DNA of 64,000 nt. It comes from Escherichia coli. GTDB taxonomy: Bacteria; Pseudomonadota; Gammaproteobacteria; Enterobacterales; Enterobacteriaceae. The position numbers were made by a program, and so were the translations under genes. The notes under the pieces are model-generated. The model saw only the letters and a program-made list of their open reading frames with translations, did no database searches and had not been told where the DNA came from. The stretch lies in the NCBI RefSeq assembly GCF_003019035.1, contig NZ_CP027447.1. The stretch is one strand, 5' to 3'. Of the stretch, positions 7,077-29,374 are shown piece after piece. Each line of letters begins with the position of its first letter. Position 1 is the stretch's first letter.

Positions 7077-7227
7077 ATTTGATCCTCGTTATTATCAACC
7101 GCGGGCCTACCTTACCTGATTGCGCATTCACAACGCTTTCAGAAAAGTCCATAAAGCCGCGATGAACCTCAGTTAAGAAAATTATGGTCTACACTGAAAA
7201 TTACATCGAATTCTAATGGGGGATCAT

Positions 7228-7557
7228 ATGTTTAACCGACCGAACCGCAACGACGTTGATGATGGCGTGCAGGATATCCAGAATGATGTCAATCAATTAG
7301 CTGACAGTCTCGAATCTGTATTGAAGTCCTGGGGCAGCGACGCCAAAGGGGAAGCCGAAGCCGCTCGTAGTAAAGCGCAGGCTCTACTGAAAGAAACCAG
7401 GGCGCGGATGCATGGTCGTACTCGCGTCCAGCAAGCCGCGCGCGATGCCGTTGGCTGCGCGGATTCTTTTGTTCGTGAAAGACCCTGGTGTAGTGTGGGT
7501 ACAGCGGCAGCGGTGGGTATTTTTATCGGCGCACTGTTAAGCATGCGCAAATCGTAG
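7228..7557 (+). CDS. ygaM: ElaB/YgaM-family membrane-anchored protein (DUF883)
   Basis: ORF 7216..7557; start at MFNRPNRND (109 aa); C-terminal TM helix. Confidence 0.85.
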   Translation: MFNRPNRNDVDDGVQDIQNDVNQLADSLESVLKSWGSDAKGEAEAARSKAQALLKETRARMHGRTRVQQAARDAVGCADSFVRERPWCSVGTAAAVGIFIGALLSMRKS

Positions 7558-7587
7558 TGCAAAAATGATAATAAATACGCGTCTTTG

Positions 7588-7616
7588 ACCCCGAAGCCTG
7601 GCTTCGGGGTTTTTTA
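7588..7616. terminator. bidirectional intrinsic terminator between ygaM and the MocR-type gene
   Basis: ACCCCGAAGC-CTGG-CTTCGGGGT stem-loop followed by TTTTTT. Confidence 0.75.
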
Positions 7617-8948
7617 GCTTAAGGCTTTACGTAATTGTTGTGCTACCTGTCGCGCCATACCTTCGTTAACGATATTAGTAAACGAAAGCAGTAATCCACC
7701 TTCCCCACTTGAACGGATACGCCAGTCGCTAAGTGCCTGCACCGCAAGGCCTGCAGCATTGGCTTTACGCGCATGGGCAATATCATCGCCTATCATTCTG
7801 ATCACCATCTGGATACCACCTTTCTGCGGCACAACCTGAAATCCTTGCTGCGTCAACGCTTGCTCAATCCATTGCCGACGTTGAGCATAATGCTGACGCA
7901 TTTTCTTCAGATGCCGCCAGAAATGCCCCTCGCGAAGAAAGTCTGCCAGTGTGTTCTGCCATAGAACAGGTACCGCACATGGAGCCAGTGACGCCTGGTG
8001 GCGGAATTGTGCAATTTGCTTCACCGGCACCACCAGCCACGCACAGCGCAATGCAGGAAATAGCGCTTTGCTGAATGTTCCGGCATAAATTACCCGCTGC
8101 GGTGCGTCGAGACTTTTCAACGCCGGTAACGGCTTACCGTGATAGCGAAACTCACTGTCATAATCATCTTCAATAATCCATGCCTGACTACGATCTGCCC
8201 ATTCCAGTATCTGATGCCTGCGCGCTAAAGAGAGCGCCACACCCAGCGGACTTTGGTGTGCTGGTGTTATCAGGGCAAAACGCGCATCAGGATAATTTTG
8301 TATTCCGCTTGTGATATCCAGTCCATTGTCATCAACCGGCACAGGCAAAATTTCCACATCATGGCGAGTGACAATCGGGCGAATCAGTGGAAAGCCGGGA
8401 TCTTCTATCCACATCCCGTTTCCCGGTTTCGCCAGCGCGTGCAGAATTAAAGCTATTGAGGCCGCATAACCGTGAGTGATAAAGACCTGCTCTGGCTGAC
8501 AATCAATCCCACGTGAAACGCGTAAGTAATCAACTATTGCCTCGCGCAACGCCACCTCACCGCAAACATCGCCTAACGCCAAATCAAAGCGCGTCTGGGT
8601 ACGAAGGCGACGCCCCATCACCCGCGCCCACAGCTCTCGCGGAAAGAGATCGAGTGCGGGTAATCCCATTTGAAATGGCAACGGTTGCTGACTTTCACCG
8701 GCAAAAGCTACAACTTGTACAGTAGATTGTTGCGGATATATCCGCTCACTGACAAATGTGCCAGCCTGTCCCCGCCTGATCAGCCATCCTTGCGCCACCA
8801 GCTCAGCATACGCATTTTCGACAGTGGAACGAGACACCCCCAGCTCCTGCGACCAGGTACGACTTGAAGGCAGCCTTGCGCCGGGTTTCAGTTCCCCTTG
8901 CTCAATAGCCGTTTTTAACTGACGGGCGATATCCTGATAGCGCGGCAT
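7614..8948 (-). CDS. MocR/GabR-type regulator (GntR HTH fused to PLP aminotransferase-like domain)
   Basis: 444-aa ORF; N-terminal GntR-type HTH (MPRYQDIARQLKTAIEQGELKPGARLPSSRTWSQELGVSRSTVENAY), long aminotransferase-fold C-terminus. Confidence 0.75.
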   Translation of the reverse strand: MPRYQDIARQLKTAIEQGELKPGARLPSSRTWSQELGVSRSTVENAYAELVAQGWLIRRGQAGTFVSERIYPQQSTVQVVAFAGESQQPLPFQMGLPALDLFPRELWARVMGRRLRTQTRFDLALGDVCGEVALREAIVDYLRVSRGIDCQPEQVFITHGYAASIALILHALAKPGNGMWIEDPGFPLIRPIVTRHDVEILPVPVDDNGLDITSGIQNYPDARFALITPAHQSPLGVALSLARRHQILEWADRSQAWIIEDDYDSEFRYHGKPLPALKSLDAPQRVIYAGTFSKALFPALRCAWLVVPVKQIAQFRHQASLAPCAVPVLWQNTLADFLREGHFWRHLKKMRQHYAQRRQWIEQALTQQGFQVVPQKGGIQMVIRMIGDDIAHARKANAAGLAVQALSDWRIRSSGEGGLLLSFTNIVNEGMARQVAQQLRKALS

Positions 8949-9035
8949 ATGGTCTGCTTTTTTAGGTAATTTATGGCTCTCTTTAGCAGTCCATTATAGT
9001 GCTACATTGCGGGCGTTAATAAGAGGAGAAACTGT

Positions 9036-9467
9036 ATGACTACATTACGTCAGCCTTACTACGAACTTAGCCCGGCAGTGTATAACGCACTAGTGCAGGC
9101 CAAAACGGCACTGGAAAATAGCACGCTGGATACCACGTTGATGGAGTTAGTTTATTTGCGCGTCTCGCAAATCAACGGCTGCGCATTTTGTCTGGAGATG
9201 CACAGCAAAGCATTGCGCAAATCCGGCGTGCCACAGCACAAACTGGACGCCCTGGCAGGTTGGCGCGTAAGCCATCATTTTGATGAACGCGAGCGGGCGG
9301 CGCTGGCATGGGCGGAATCGGTAACCGAAATTGCCAGAACCCATGCGGAAGACGAGGTTTATCAGCCTTTGCTTGAGCATTTCAGCGCAGCAGAGATCAG
9401 CGACTTAACGTTTGCCATCGGGCTGATGAATTGTTTTAACCGTCTGGCCGTTTCCATGCGGATGTAA
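9036..9467 (+). CDS. carboxymuconolactone decarboxylase (AhpD-like) family protein
   Basis: 143-aa ORF with CAFCLEMH motif typical of the CMD/AhpD core; divergent from the MocR-type regulator. Confidence 0.65.
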   Translation: MTTLRQPYYELSPAVYNALVQAKTALENSTLDTTLMELVYLRVSQINGCAFCLEMHSKALRKSGVPQHKLDALAGWRVSHHFDERERAALAWAESVTEIARTHAEDEVYQPLLEHFSAAEISDLTFAIGLMNCFNRLAVSMRM

Positions 9468-9675
9468 CTTCTTGATGCCGGGTATTCGCCCGGCAAAAAA
9501 ACACAAAATCCCCTACCCCGTTGAGCCATTCATCGGTGGCGTAACCAATCTAAAATTCCCATATCTTGTGTGGTTGAATCTTTTTTCAACTACATCTAGT
9601 ATCTCTGTATCAACAGAGAGACAACCCGACGCGTATCATCGCGCCGTATCTTCATTTTAAACGGAAATACGAATC

Positions 9676-16029: not shown

Positions 16030-16086
16030 CTCTGCACTTGCCCGGTGACGCCGGGCATTATCACCCTGCCAAAAAAAGGAATAACA

Positions 16087-17079
16087 ATGCGACATAGCGT
16101 ACTTTTTGCGACAGCGTTTGCCACGCTTATCTCTACACAAACTTTTGCTGCCGACCTGCCGGGCAAAGGCATTACTGTTAATCCGGTTCAGAGCACCATC
16201 ACCGAAGAAACTTTCCAGACGCTGCTGGTCAGCCGCGCGCTGGAGAAATTAGGTTATACCGTCAATAAACCCAGCGAAGTGGATTACAACGTTGGGTACA
16301 CCTCGCTTGCTTCCGGCGATGCAACCTTCACCGCCGTGAACTGGACGCCGCTGCATGACAACATGTACGAAGCTGCCGGTGGCGATAAGAAATTTTATCG
16401 TGAAGGAGTATTTGTTAACGGCGCGGCACAGGGTTACCTGATCGATAAGAAAACCGCCGACCAGTATAAAATTACCAACATCGCGCAACTTAAAGATCCG
16501 AAGATCGCCAAACTGTTCGATACCAACGGCGACGGTAAAGCGGATTTAACCGGCTGTAACCCAGGCTGGGGCTGCGAAGGTGCGATCAACCACCAGCTTG
16601 CCGCGTATGGACTGACCAATACCGTGACGCATAATCAGGGGAACTACGCAGCGATGATGGCTGACACCATCAGTCGTTACAAAGAGGGTAAGCCGGTGTT
16701 TTACTACACCTGGACGCCGTACTGGGTGAGTAACGAACTGAAACCGGGGAAAGATGTGGTCTGGTTGCAGGTGCCGTTCTCCGCACTGCCGGGCGATAAA
16801 AATGCCGATACCAAACTGCCGAATGGCGCGAATTACGGCTTCCCGGTCAGTACCATGCATATCGTTGCCAACAAAGCCTGGGCCGAGAAAAATCCGGCGG
16901 CAGCGAAACTGTTTGCCATTATGCAGTTGCCAGTGGCAGATATTAACGCCCAGAACGCCATTATGCATGACGGCAAAGCCTCAGAAGGCGATATTCAGGG
17001 CCACGTTGATGGCTGGATCAAAGCCCACCAGCAGCAGTTCGATGGCTGGGTGAATGAAGCGCTGGCAGCGCAGAAGTAA
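16087..17079 (+). CDS. proX: glycine betaine-binding periplasmic protein
   Basis: ORF 16045..17079; start at ATG 16087 ([21 protein letters not shown] signal peptide), 330 aa. Confidence 0.9.
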
Positions 17080-17087
17080 TTTTTATT

Positions 17088-17168
17088 CGGGCGGATAAGG
17101 CGTTTTTGCCTCATCCGCCGCTCTGTACACAATGCCTGATGCGACGCTGGCGCGTCTTATCATACCTA
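17088..17168. repeat. REP/BIME element downstream of proX
   Basis: CGGGCGGATAAGGCG...CATCCGCC and GCCTGATGCGACGCTGGCGCGTCTTATCA palindromic units. Confidence 0.6.
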
Positions 17169-25822: not shown

Positions 25823-25895
25823 GAAAGACGCGCATTTGTTATCATCATCCCTGAATTCAGAGATGAAATTTTGGCCACTCACGAGTGGCCTTTTT
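25823..25895 (+). ncRNA. micA: Hfq-dependent small RNA MicA (SraD)
   Basis: Sequence GAAAGACGCGCATTTGTTATCATCATCCCTGAATTCAGAGATGAAATTTTGGCCACTCACGAGTGGCCTTTTT matches MicA as I recall it; terminator hairpin plus U-tract; luxS-gshA intergenic position. Confidence 0.85.
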
Positions 25896-28782: not shown

Positions 28783-28859
28783 TGGTGCATCCGGGAGGAT
28801 TCGAACCTCCGACCGCTCGGTTCGTAGCCGAGTACTCTATCCAGCTGAGCTACGGATGC
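28783..28859 (-). tRNA. argQ: tRNA-Arg (anticodon ACG)
   Basis: Reverse complement reads GCATCCGTAGCTCAGCTGGATAGAGTACTCGGCTACGAACCGAGCGGTCGGAGGTTCGAATCCTCCCGGATGCACCA. Confidence 0.95.
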
Positions 28860-28921
28860 ATCGGGAAATTTATTTTACTGCTGATATTGATACCGCTACT
28901 AAAGCCATATCAAGTAAGAGA

Positions 28922-28998
28922 TGGTGCATCCGGGAGGATTCGAACCTCCGACCGCTCGGTTCGTAGCCGAGTACTCTATCCAGCTGAGCTACGGATGC
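28922..28998 (-). tRNA. argZ: tRNA-Arg (ACG), identical copy
   Basis: Identical 77-nt sequence; symbol assigned by position in the array. Confidence 0.9.
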
Positions 28999-29060
28999 AT
29001 CGGGAAATTTATTTTACTGCTGATATTTATACCGCTACTAAAGCCATATCAAGTAAGAGA

Positions 29061-29137
29061 TGGTGCATCCGGGAGGATTCGAACCTCCGACCGCTCGGTT
29101 CGTAGCCGAGTACTCTATCCAGCTGAGCTACGGATGC
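29061..29137 (-). tRNA. argY: tRNA-Arg (ACG), identical copy
   Basis: Identical 77-nt sequence; symbol assigned by position. Confidence 0.9.
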
Positions 29138-29201
29138 ATCGGGAAACTTACTTTACTGCAGATTTTTTGATACCGCCACTAAAGCCGTATCAAGTAAGAG
29201 A

Positions 29202-29278
29202 TGGTGCATCCGGGAGGATTCGAACCTCCGACCGCTCGGTTCGTAGCCGAGTACTCTATCCAGCTGAGCTACGGATGC
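29202..29278 (-). tRNA. argV: tRNA-Arg (ACG), identical copy
   Basis: Identical 77-nt sequence; symbol assigned by position. Confidence 0.9.
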
Positions 29279-29281
29279 AAA

Positions 29282-29374
29282 TGGCGGTGAGGCGGGGATT
29301 CGAACCCCGGATGCAGCTTTTGACCGCATACTCCCTTAGCAGGGGAGCGCCTTCAGCCTCTCGGCCACCTCACC
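29282..29374 (-). tRNA. serV: tRNA-Ser (anticodon GCU), long variable arm
   Basis: Reverse complement reads GGTGAGGTGGCCGAGAGGCTGAAGGCGCTCCCCTGCTAAGGGAGTATGCGGTCAAAAGCTGCATCCGGGGTTCGAATCCCCGCCTCACCGCCA. Confidence 0.95.

What the first reader, a model, noticed from the sequence alone, without database searches (positions are those of the whole stretch)
7614..9467. MocR-type regulator and AhpD/CMD-like gene pair between ygaM and nrdH
As I recall the K-12 order, ygaM is followed directly by nrdHIEF. Here a divergent pair (a GntR-HTH/aminotransferase-fold regulator and a CMD-family protein with CAFCLEMH) lies between them, flanked by a bidirectional terminator. This is a typical small accessory regulatory module and may be strain-variable.
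Basis: partly seen in the sequence, partly recalled or inferred. Interest (0 to 1): 0.35.

Follow-up and report, generated by a model that had tools for sequence, protein, structure and literature searches.

The report
Ancestral MocR regulator and AhpD-like gene pair
The two genes between ygaM and nrdH are real: an already catalogued regulator/antioxidant-type gene pair that is ancestral in enterobacteria, was lost by one old deletion in the K-12-type majority of E. coli, and is kept by about a quarter of strains, so the finding is correct but ordinary.

Summary
Window 7614-8948 (-) encodes a 444-aa MocR-type regulator: a GntR wHTH plus an aminotransferase fold, with the PLP lysine K294. Window 9036-9467 (+) encodes a 143-aa AhpD-like CMD-family protein with the motif C49-A-F-C52-L-E-M-H56. 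It matches P. aeruginosa PA0269 closely (phmmer E 3e-31), a solved structure with weak Cys-dependent peroxidase activity.

K-12 goes straight from ygaM to nrdH. Of 5426 complete E. coli genomes, 1387 (25.6%) carry the pair. It is always single-copy, chromosomal and at this locus. About 111 of them have a 581-bp deletion that removes the regulator's N-terminus.

The pair is not an inserted islet. The order nrdH-CMD<->MocR-ygaM occurs in E. albertii, Kluyvera, Cedecea, Pluralibacter, Shimwellia and Rahnella, and in Citrobacter without ygaM. All three sampled deletion alleles share one junction. GC content is normal, and there are no flanking repeats, mobility genes or genuine plasmid copies.

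The 87-bp intergenic region holds a conserved 45-bp operator with two direct boxes and one inverted box, overlapping both -10 elements. Suvorova & Rodionov (2016) already list the Salmonella orthologue STM2803 with a predicted COG2128 regulon. No experimental study was found.

PGAP's newer name "PdxR" is not supported by gene context. Novelty: already known. Interest is low.

The parts
7587..7611 (+). ygaM intrinsic terminator hairpin followed by U6. This is the left edge of the 1.85-kb presence/absence segment, and the MocR stop codon (7614-7616) lies in its T-tract.
   Evidence: dG -21.7 kcal/mol, z -3.6; junction alignments
7614..8948 (-). MocR-subfamily GntR transcription factor gene, 444 aa. 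The wHTH is aa 4-66 (nt 8751-8939). The aminotransferase-like domain is roughly aa 100-436 (nt 7641-8651).
   Evidence: The best solved relatives are B. clausii PdxR (7PQ9, E 3e-62) and B. subtilis GabR (4N0B, E 2e-54). dN/dS is about 0.10.
8067..8069 (-). Codon for Lys294, in the motif GTFSK. It aligns with the same FSK lysine in PdxR and GabR, which I take from memory to be the PLP Schiff-base lysine (GabR K312).
   Evidence: alignment; invariant in 76 of 76 homologues; codon read
8949..8957 (+). Operator box 1, ATGGTCTGC. It abuts the MocR start codon.
   Evidence: phylogenetic footprint of 24 enterobacterial intergenic regions; motif scan
8973..8981 (+). Operator box 2, ATGGCTCTC. It is a direct repeat of box 1, 24 bp start to start, and overlaps the -35 region of the predicted CMD promoter.
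8986..8994 (+). Operator box 3, GCAGTCCAT. It is an inverted copy of box 1. The span from box 1 to box 3 is 45 bp in nearly all loci.
8993..9000 (.). Overlapping divergent -10 elements: TATAGT (8995-9000, + strand, CMD gene) and TATAAT (8998 to 8993, - strand, MocR gene). These are predicted, not mapped.
   Evidence: sequence; TATAGT/GTGCTAC is conserved; the consensus scan did not call them because both -35 hexamers are weak
9023..9028 (+). Shine-Dalgarno sequence GAGGAG, 7 nt before the CMD start codon.
   Evidence: conserved
9036..9467 (+). AhpD-like CMD-family (COG2128) protein gene, 143 aa. The active-site motif C49-A-F-C52-L-E-M-H56 is encoded at 9180-9203, and Glu37 is also present.
   Evidence: PA0269 2IJC/2O4D E 3e-31; Atu0492 2GMY. 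C49, C52 and H56 are invariant in 61 of 61 linked homologues. dN/dS is 0.03-0.07.
9476..9495 (+). GC-rich hairpin after the CMD stop codon, followed by A7 with no U-tract. It marks the right edge of the variable segment and is also missing from K-12-type alleles.
   Evidence: dG -15.3 kcal/mol

Best explanation
This is an ancestral enterobacterial two-gene divergon, orthologous to Salmonella STM2803/STM2804. It is not an inserted element.

The minus-strand gene encodes a MocR-type regulator: a GntR winged-helix DNA-binding domain fused to a PLP-binding aminotransferase-like sensor domain. The plus-strand gene encodes a small AhpD-like thiol protein with a CxxC...H motif, of the PA0269 type. 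That type has weak cysteine-dependent hydroperoxide-reducing activity.

Inferred mechanism: a head-to-tail regulator dimer binds the 45-bp tripartite operator (direct boxes 1 and 2, inverted box 3) in the 87-bp intergenic region. The operator overlaps both divergent promoters. By analogy with PdxR, GabR and TauR, the regulator most likely represses its own gene and activates the AhpD-like gene. The CMD promoter has a weak -35 overlapped by box 2, which fits activation. The switch would be a change in the PLP site, either PLP occupancy or an aldimine-forming amine ligand.

In distant relatives the same regulator and operator control operons that add an FMN-dependent NAD(P)H reductase (AcpD/Flavodoxin_2) and a GNAT acetyltransferase. 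This points to redox or electrophile detoxification rather than vitamin B6 synthesis.

The E. coli polymorphism arose from a single old deletion of about 1.85 kb, running from the ygaM terminator T-tract to just past the CMD stop codon. That deletion is now carried by about 74% of complete genomes, including K-12.

Shown here: gene identities, conserved residues, operator conservation, synteny, population frequencies and purifying selection. Inferred: DNA binding by this protein, the sign of regulation, the effector and the enzyme's substrate.
For: - **Domains and motifs:**
- **Catalogued orthologous group:** the 'Spro_3719 - Enterobacteriales' group, including STM2803, has a predicted COG2128 regulon. 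Pseudomonas Pf-5 PFL_2191 has COG2128 + AcpD + GNAT (PMC5320631 supplement).
- **Independent confirmation of the partners:** the GNAT / Flavodoxin_2 / CMD operon is seen in Pseudomonas-type loci.
- **Synteny:** the order nrdI-nrdH-CMD<->MocR-ygaM-ygaC-alaE occurs in about 20 enterobacterial genomes and in Rahnella.
- **Operator:** the footprint is. The motif lies within 260 bp upstream of MocR in 31 of 79 loci, against 2 matches elsewhere in 1.42 Mb, and it occurs once in the 64-kb window.
- **Population frequencies:**
- **Single deletion junction:** shared by K-12, an O103 strain and EH01.
- **Selection:** dN/dS is 0.03-0.10.
- **No sign of mobility:** normal GC; no flanking repeats; no genuine plasmid or phage copies.
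- **PA0269 biochemistry:** PMC3141380.
Against: - No experiment on this pair was found. The regulon assignment rests on comparative genomics only.
- The promoters are predicted and were not called by the consensus scan.
- The operator regex was derived from the same loci it was counted on, so the enrichment figure is optimistic.
- Tyr50 of the PA0269 proton relay is Phe here (49 F against 12 Y among homologues). PA0269's peroxidase rate is very low, so hydroperoxide may not be the true substrate.
- About 74% of E. coli lack the pair and about 111 genomes have a dead regulator, so it is dispensable.
- The roughly 40 bp next to the right junction (9522-9560) is strongly diverged between the two haplotypes. 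A simple recent deletion does not explain this.
Confidence: 0.78

Rival explanations
1. A horizontally acquired accessory islet was inserted between ygaM and nrdH in some E. coli lineages.
For: It is absent from K-12 and about 74% of complete E. coli genomes. The MocR alleles of B2-type and O157-type strains are unusually divergent (88.8% nt, dS 0.43, against about 0.09 for the neighbouring genes). That divergence could reflect import of DNA.
Against: The position and orientation are the same in E. albertii, Citrobacter, Kluyvera, Cedecea, Pseudocitrobacter, Pluralibacter, Shimwellia, Pseudescherichia, Enterobacter spp. and Rahnella. There are no flanking direct repeats, integrase, transposase or tRNA. 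GC is 0.50-0.53, like the flanks. No plasmid copies occur among 20,395 E. coli records. The PLSDB and phage hits are mislabelled chromosomes or short fragments. All absence alleles examined share one junction.
Confidence: 0.04
2. The regulator is a genuine PdxR, as newer RefSeq/PGAP annotation names it. On this reading it controls vitamin B6 (PLP) biosynthesis or salvage, and the CMD gene is incidental.
For: NCBIfam NF052282 (PdxR 'equivalog') scores 407 bits against a cutoff of 320. The best solved relative is B. clausii PdxR. [quoted passage not shown] PLP itself may well be the ligand.
Against: No pdx gene lies next to it. In enterobacteria the neighbours are CMD, nrdH, ygaM and ygaC. From general knowledge, E. 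coli makes PLP by the PdxA/PdxJ route and has no pdxST. Suvorova & Rodionov place the orthologues (STM2803, CKO_04020, Spro_3719) in a separate group whose predicted regulon is COG2128, not among their PdxR, PdxW or PdxQ groups. Linkage to CMD is kept over large phylogenetic distance. The operator occurs only once in the 64-kb window.
Confidence: 0.1
3. The pair is a decaying, functionless relic on its way to loss in E. coli.
For: It has been lost from most E. coli. About 111 genomes carry a 581-bp deletion removing the regulator's start and HTH. A Salmonella study used STM2804 as a neutral insertion site of 'no known function' (PMC3723669).
Against: Both genes are intact in 1276 genomes. dN/dS is 0.10 for MocR and 0.03-0.07 for CMD, even between deeply diverged alleles. 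The catalytic and PLP residues are invariant. The operator is 99% conserved between the B2-type and O157-type alleles.
Confidence: 0.06
4. The small gene encodes a true gamma-carboxymuconolactone decarboxylase of aromatic (protocatechuate) catabolism, as the family name suggests.
For: A Pfam CMD (PF02627) match.
Against: It carries the AhpD-type CxxCxxxH motif and matches TIGR00778 'AhpD core'. Its close structural relatives are PA0269-type AhpD-like proteins. No pca genes lie nearby.
Confidence: 0.02

Closest known systems
MocR-TF orthologous group 'Spro_3719 - Enterobacteriales' (Salmonella LT2 STM2803, C. koseri CKO_04020, Serratia Spro_3719, Klebsiella KPN_03002) in Suvorova & Rodionov 2016, Microb Genom 2:e000047
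   Same: The regulator shares 74-78% protein identity with Citrobacter and Salmonella proteins. It has the same divergent COG2128 target and the same chromosomal locus.
   Different: E. coli was not listed there, because K-12 lacks the pair. The published regulon is an in-silico prediction only, and no function is assigned.
PdxR of Bacillus clausii (PDB 7PQ9, 7ZLA and others) and the PdxR regulators of Corynebacterium, Listeria and Streptococcus
   Same: wHTH plus aminotransferase-fold architecture, a conserved PLP lysine, and a divergently transcribed target. [quoted passage not shown]
   Different: The relationship is distant (phmmer E 3e-62). The target is an AhpD-like gene, not pdxST or pdxK. 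The effector is untested. The NCBIfam 'PdxR equivalog' call is probably over-inclusive.
GabR of Bacillus subtilis (PDB 4N0B)
   Same: MocR architecture. The FSK lysine aligns with K294 here (GabR K312, from memory). GabR is an auto-repressor and activator of a divergent gene.
   Different: Different target (gabTD), different effector (GABA-PLP aldimine) and different box sequence.
PA0269 of Pseudomonas aeruginosa (PDB 2IJC/2O4D/7XW1; Clarke et al. 2011, BMC Struct Biol 11:27) and Atu0492 (2GMY)
   Same: A full-length match (E 3e-31), similar size (143 against 145 aa), and the Glu / Cys-x-x-Cys / His relay. PA0269's neighbour PA0268 is also a MocR-TF with a predicted COG2128 regulon.
   Different: Relay residue Tyr50 is Phe51 here. 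PA0268 belongs to a different MocR orthologous group. Only weak H2O2 reduction was shown, and only for PA0269.
Mycobacterium tuberculosis AhpD
   Same: CxxC...H catalytic motif and the same Pfam family.
   Different: According to the PA0269 paper's abstract, overall identity is only about 9% and the catalytic helices sit in a different part of the chain. There is no adjacent ahpC here, so an AhpC-reductase role is not supported by context.

Membership tests
MocR subfamily of GntR transcription factors | N-terminal GntR-type winged helix-turn-helix domain | tested here: met
   PF00392, aa 4-66, E 1.4e-17
MocR subfamily of GntR transcription factors | C-terminal fold-type I aminotransferase-like domain with the PLP Schiff-base lysine | tested here: met
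   PF00155, aa 126-386. K294 in GTFSK aligns with the FSK lysine of PdxR and GabR and is invariant in 76 of 76 homologues.
MocR subfamily of GntR transcription factors | Repeat-type operator (direct and/or inverted boxes) in the region shared with a divergent target gene | tested here: met
   Conserved boxes at 8949-8957, 8973-8981 and 8986-8994
MocR subfamily of GntR transcription factors | Binds PLP, and DNA binding responds to the ligand | not testable with these tools
   Needs purified protein (spectra, EMSA)
PdxR (pyridoxine biosynthesis regulator; NCBIfam NF052282) | Sequence score above the curated cutoff | tested here: met
   407 bits against a cutoff of 320
PdxR (pyridoxine biosynthesis regulator; NCBIfam NF052282) | Controls an adjacent PLP synthesis or salvage gene (pdxST, pdxK, pdxO, pdxH) | tested here: not met
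   The divergent gene is CMD/AhpD-like, and the other neighbours are nrdH, ygaM and ygaC. The published regulog lists COG2128 only.
AhpD-like / CMD family (PF02627, COG2128), PA0269 type | CMD-family fold | tested here: met
   PF02627 E 3.5e-21; TIGR00778 AhpD core 54.9 bits against a cutoff of 27.8; full-length match to PA0269
AhpD-like / CMD family (PF02627, COG2128), PA0269 type | Cys-x-x-Cys-x-x-x-His catalytic motif with the Glu relay residue | tested here: met
   E37, C49, C52 and H56 are present. The two Cys and the His are invariant in 61 of 61 homologues. Tyr50 of PA0269 is Phe here.
AhpD-like / CMD family (PF02627, COG2128), PA0269 type | Cysteine-dependent hydroperoxide reduction | not testable with these tools
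   Shown only for PA0269 (FOX assay, PMC3141380)
AhpC/AhpD alkylhydroperoxidase system (mycobacterial type) | Partner peroxiredoxin ahpC encoded alongside | tested here: not met
   No AhpC-like gene was seen among the neighbours identified in the enterobacterial loci. Neighbouring ORFs were not all scanned against Pfam.
Genomic islet / mobile accessory element | Flanking direct repeats, integrase or transposase, tRNA target, atypical composition, or copies on plasmids or phages | tested here: not met
   single chromosomal copy in all 1387 carrier genomes

The most novel reading that the evidence does not exclude
This widespread, never-studied MocR group may use its PLP site as a chemical sensor for a PLP-reactive or redox-active toxin, such as an arylamine, hydroxylamine, hydrazine, quinone-imine or oxidant. 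It would then switch on a thiol/flavin detoxification set: an AhpD-like CxxC protein, with or without an AcpD-type NAD(P)H reductase and a GNAT. Retention in ExPEC-type and O157-type E. coli but loss in K-12-type strains could then give a lineage-specific stress-resistance trait. Because the CMD gene has no canonical terminator, its transcription might also feed into the downstream nrdHIEF operon.
Probability: 0.2. Interest if true: 0.45.

Novelty: already known. Interest (0 to 1): 0.17.

Why it matters
The stakes are modest.

1. It is a clean example of K-12 under-representing the species. A gene pair ancestral to Enterobacteriaceae is missing from the reference strain through one old deletion, so its presence in another E. 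coli strain looks like an insertion.

2. It flags a probable over-annotation. RefSeq now names this regulator "PdxR, pyridoxine biosynthesis transcription factor", although its conserved target is an AhpD-like gene.

3. The regulon is experimentally untouched, despite a sharply defined 45-bp operator. A natural regulator-null lineage of about 111 genomes makes it an easy target for anyone studying MocR-type sensors.

4. The deletion allele also changes about 60 bp just upstream of the nrdHIEF promoter. This could matter for strain differences in nrdHIEF regulation.

Tried and rejected
- **Literature.** Searches for MocR + carboxymuconolactone decarboxylase, MocR + AhpD, and 7XW1 returned nothing. 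STM2803/STM2804 gave only a paper using STM2804 as a neutral insertion site. O157 locus-tag searches showed that ECs3533 is ygaM. They also found a 'z3974' protein retained on a salicylidene-acylhydrazide affinity matrix but negative in Far-Western blots. I could not verify that z3974 is this CMD gene, so I do not use it as evidence.
- **Flanking repeats.** The repeat finder returned only short, low-identity chance pairs.
- **Promoter scan.** The consensus scan did not call the divergent promoters, because both -35 hexamers are weak. My promoter assignment rests on conservation instead.
- **Genome-collection scan.** Salmonella/Citrobacter-type synteny was checked through and the 2016 supplement instead.
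- **Plasmid and phage hits.** They are 4.9-Mb 'plasmids' (mislabelled chromosomes) and 1.5-2 kb unannotated 'phage' fragments, so they are not evidence of mobility.
- **O157-specific stretch.** The 114 bp after ygaM was tested as a possible repeat element or sRNA. It is single-copy, confined to the 365 O157-type genomes, and has no Rfam match.
- **Inversion at the right junction.** A K-12 16-mer matches the reverse strand of the 9477-9494 hairpin. The hairpin is palindromic, and the multiple alignment is explained more simply by its deletion.
Full report
**1. Observation**

- ORF 7614-8948 on the minus strand is 444 aa. It matches Pfam GntR (aa 4-66, E 1.4e-17) and Aminotran_1_2 (aa 126-386, E 5e-26).
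- ORF 9036-9467 on the plus strand is 143 aa. It matches Pfam CMD (E 3.5e-21). CAFCLEMH is encoded at 9180-9203.
- The neighbours are stpA, alaE, ygaC and ygaM on the left, and nrdH, nrdI, nrdE and nrdF on the right.
- K-12 MG1655 has ygaM followed by nrdH across 247 bp.

The one inaccurate detail is the "bidirectional terminator". The strong hairpin at 7587-7611 (dG -21.7 kcal/mol) has a U-tract only on the plus strand, so it terminates ygaM. The MocR stop codon sits inside that T-tract. The hairpin after the CMD gene (9476-9495, dG -15.3) is followed by A7, so it is canonical in neither direction.

**2. Distribution in E. coli**

The 1.85-kb segment is present in 1387 of 5426 complete genomes (25.6%). 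It is always a single chromosomal copy and never on a plasmid. Every sampled copy lies at this locus.

Two sequence classes exist:
- A window-type allele, at least 99% identical, in 1007 genomes. These include ATCC 25922, PMV-1 and an APEC O2:K1:H5 strain, which I know as phylogroup B2. A further 15 genomes fall at 95-99%.
- An O157:H7/O145:H28-type allele, about 92% identical, in 365 genomes. This allele also carries a private, single-copy 114-bp stretch between the ygaM stop codon and the terminator.

About 111 genomes have less than 80% coverage. In all four rows sampled, and in strain WP3-W18-CRE-03, they carry an internal deletion. In WP3-W18-CRE-03 (L003) it removes window 8365-8945. This takes out the start codon, the HTH and about 195 N-terminal codons of the regulator, and leaves the operator and the CMD gene intact.

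**3. Polarity: loss, not gain**

A scan of one genome per species returned 79 loci. tblastn with the window's proteins gave the following:
- The order nrdI-nrdH-CMD<->MocR-ygaM-ygaC-alaE(-stpA) appears in E. albertii, Kluyvera, Pseudocitrobacter, Cedecea, Pseudescherichia, Shimwellia, Pluralibacter, several Enterobacter-labelled genomes and a divergent Escherichia genome.
- Citrobacter has the same order without ygaM.
- Rahnella (Yersiniaceae) also has it, with MocR only 47% identical.
- A Salmonella/Citrobacter-type contig shows the same order.
- The 2016 regulon catalogue lists Salmonella LT2 STM2803.

The absence allele of K-12, an O103 strain and strain EH01 has one and the same junction. 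It runs from the ygaM terminator T-tract to the sequence just past the CMD stop codon, and the 9477-9494 hairpin is also missing. The rows sampled all span 827-828 bp.

No other sign of mobility was found:
- GC is 0.50-0.53, like the flanks.
- No flanking repeats, mobility genes or adjacent tRNA were found.
- The PLSDB and phage hits are mislabelled chromosomes or short unannotated fragments.

The pair is therefore ancestral, and the K-12 state is a single old deletion that has spread.

**4. Selection and allele history**

Where the genes are retained, they are under purifying selection. dN/dS is about 0.10 for MocR and 0.03-0.07 for CMD.

One oddity remains. Between the window-type and O157-type alleles, the flanks and CMD differ by dS of about 0.09. 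MocR differs by dS 0.43 (88.8% nt). The divergence peaks at the 3' end of MocR and in the linker, while the operator is 99% identical. This indicates old allelic lineages or an imported segment with a breakpoint near the operator. I did not resolve which.

**5. The proteins**

*Regulator.* The best solved relatives are B. clausii PdxR (7PQ9/7ZLA and others, E 3e-62) and B. subtilis GabR (4N0B). K294 in GTFSK aligns with the FSK lysine of both, which I recall as the PLP Schiff-base lysine (GabR K312). Together with the DDYDSE motif, it is invariant in 76 homologues.

*Small protein.* It matches P. aeruginosa PA0269 (2IJC/2O4D/7XW1) and Atu0492 over its full length (E about 1e-30 to 1e-31). PA0269 is described as an AhpD-like protein with a Glu36 / Cys48 / Tyr50 / Cys51 / His55 relay. 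It has weak, NEM-sensitive H2O2-reducing activity (PMC3141380). The window protein has E37, C49, F51, C52 and H56. Both Cys, the His, R42, Q45 and N47 are invariant in 61 MocR-linked homologues. Position 51 is F in 49 of them and Y in 12.

**6. Operator and promoters**

I aligned 24 enterobacterial MocR-CMD intergenic regions. Against otherwise diverged sequence, a block is conserved: ATGGTCTGC (8949-8957), a T-rich spacer, ATGGCTCTC (8973-8981), four bases, then GCAGTCCAT (8986-8994). It is followed directly by TATAGTGCTAC.
- Boxes 1 and 2 are direct repeats, 24 bp start to start.
- Box 3 is the inverted copy of box 1.

A strict pattern for the three boxes gave these counts:
- It occurs within 260 bp upstream of MocR in 31 of 79 loci, nearly always spanning 45 bp. 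These include Pseudomonas, Vibrio, Hafnia, Budvicia, Cupriavidus and Sphingomonas.
- Only 2 matches occur elsewhere in 1.42 Mb.
- It occurs once in the 64-kb window.
- The pattern was derived from these same loci, so the contrast is somewhat inflated.

TATAGT (8995-9000) is a plausible -10 for the CMD gene, with a weak -35 overlapped by box 2. On the other strand, TATAAT (8998 to 8993) is a plausible -10 for MocR, whose leader would then contain boxes 2 and 1. These promoters are predictions.

**7. Regulon context and what is already known**

Outside enterobacteria, MocR homologues of 40-49% identity remain linked to a CMD homologue in most loci. In Pseudomonas the divergent operon is GNAT, then a Flavodoxin_2 (AcpD-like NAD(P)H reductase), then CMD. 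In Vibrio the first gene is the Flavodoxin_2 reductase.

This matches Suvorova & Rodionov 2016. Their supplement lists the orthologous group 'Spro_3719 - Enterobacteriales' (STM2803, CKO_04020, KPN_03002, Spro_3719, ECA2654) with regulon COG2128. It lists PFL_2191 with COG2128 + AcpD + PF00583. COG2128 appears in 53 MocR regulons.

The pair is thus already catalogued computationally and annotated in RefSeq. I found no experimental study of it.

**8. Mechanism (inferred)**

By analogy with GabR, PdxR and TauR (summarised in PMC5320631), a head-to-tail dimer would bind the tripartite operator. It would repress its own promoter and activate the weak-(-35) CMD promoter when the PLP site changes state. 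I put about 0.55 on "activator of CMD plus auto-repressor". The partner genes suggest thiol- and flavin-based detoxification of an oxidant or electrophile. The effector and substrate are unknown.

**9. Annotation caveat**

NCBIfam's PdxR "equivalog" passes its cutoff (407 against 320 bits), and newer RefSeq records name the gene pdxR. No pdx gene is adjacent in any enterobacterial locus. The published regulog is COG2128 only. From general knowledge, E. coli uses the PdxA/PdxJ route. Membership in the MocR subfamily is met, but functional membership in PdxR is not supported.

**10. Verdict**

It is an already known, annotated, strain-variable gene pair of ordinary kind. Interest is low. The residual value lies in an uncharacterised but well-defined MocR regulon and a probable misnaming in current annotation.

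Noticed in passing
window 9522-9560 (compare L001 2053-2092): About 40 bp just upstream of the nrdH promoter region is only about 55-60% alike between module-carrying alleles (window, O157, E. albertii) and deletion alleles (K-12, O103). From 9561 onward the sequence is identical. I recognise the identical part, from memory, as the NrdR-box region. Strain EH01 has an intermediate version. This could alter upstream regulation of nrdHIEF, and a simple deletion does not explain it.
   Followed up: partly
window 7614-8948 against L002 2108-3442: MocR alleles of window-type and O157-type E. coli differ by dS 0.43 (88.8% nt). CMD, nrdI and alaE differ by dS 0.02-0.10. Divergence peaks at the gene's 3' end (80-84%) and in the linker region, while the operator is 99% identical. 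This suggests ancient allelic lineages or an imported segment.
   Followed up: partly
L002 1962-2075 (O157:H7, between the ygaM stop codon and the terminator): A 114-bp stretch replaces 27 bp of the window and K-12 sequence. It is single-copy, found in exactly the 365 genomes with the O157-type allele (including O145:H28), and has no Rfam match.
   Followed up: yes
L003 2015-2770 (equivalent to loss of window 8365-8945): About 111 E. coli genomes, for example WP3-W18-CRE-03, EC12, FEA3, FAH and KE41, carry a 581-bp deletion. It removes the regulator's start codon, HTH and linker but keeps the operator and an intact CMD gene. This is a natural regulator-null lineage.
   Followed up: partly
window 7614-8948; RefSeq rows: Newer PGAP annotation names this gene 'pdxR, MocR-like pyridoxine biosynthesis transcription factor' (NF052282, 407 bits against a cutoff of 320). 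Its conserved divergent target is an AhpD-like gene and no pdx gene is nearby, so this is probably an over-inclusive equivalog model.
   Followed up: partly
L006, L007, L008, L086 (Citrobacter-type loci): ygaM is missing in these genomes. The MocR gene is followed directly by ygaC, so ygaM itself varies among genera at this locus.
   Followed up: no
L066 1767-1812 (Rhizobium tubonense): A second full match to the tripartite operator pattern lies about 2.2 kb from the MocR homologue. It may mark an additional regulon member in that species.
   Followed up: no
(H71, H72, H74; H81, H82): PLSDB records of 4.9-5.4 Mb labelled as plasmids are evidently chromosomes. Two 1.5-2.2 kb unannotated 'phage' records (OR845538, OR851745) consist largely of a MocR/CMD-like segment at 73-76% identity, and are probably bacterial DNA.
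   Followed up: no
window 7216-7557: the ORF listing starts ygaM at the first ATG (7216, 113 aa). RefSeq annotates 330 nt (109 aa), which corresponds to a start at 7228. The NCBIfam PRK10132 match also begins at residue 5.
   Followed up: no
window 17089-17166, 25823-25894, 28783-29374: The rest of the window looks like ordinary E. coli. There is an naRNA4/REP-type hit after the ORF at 16045-17079, which I take to be proX. MicA sRNA lies between two ORFs I take to be luxS and gshA. There is an array of four tRNA-Arg(ACG) genes plus tRNA-Ser(GCT).
   Followed up: no
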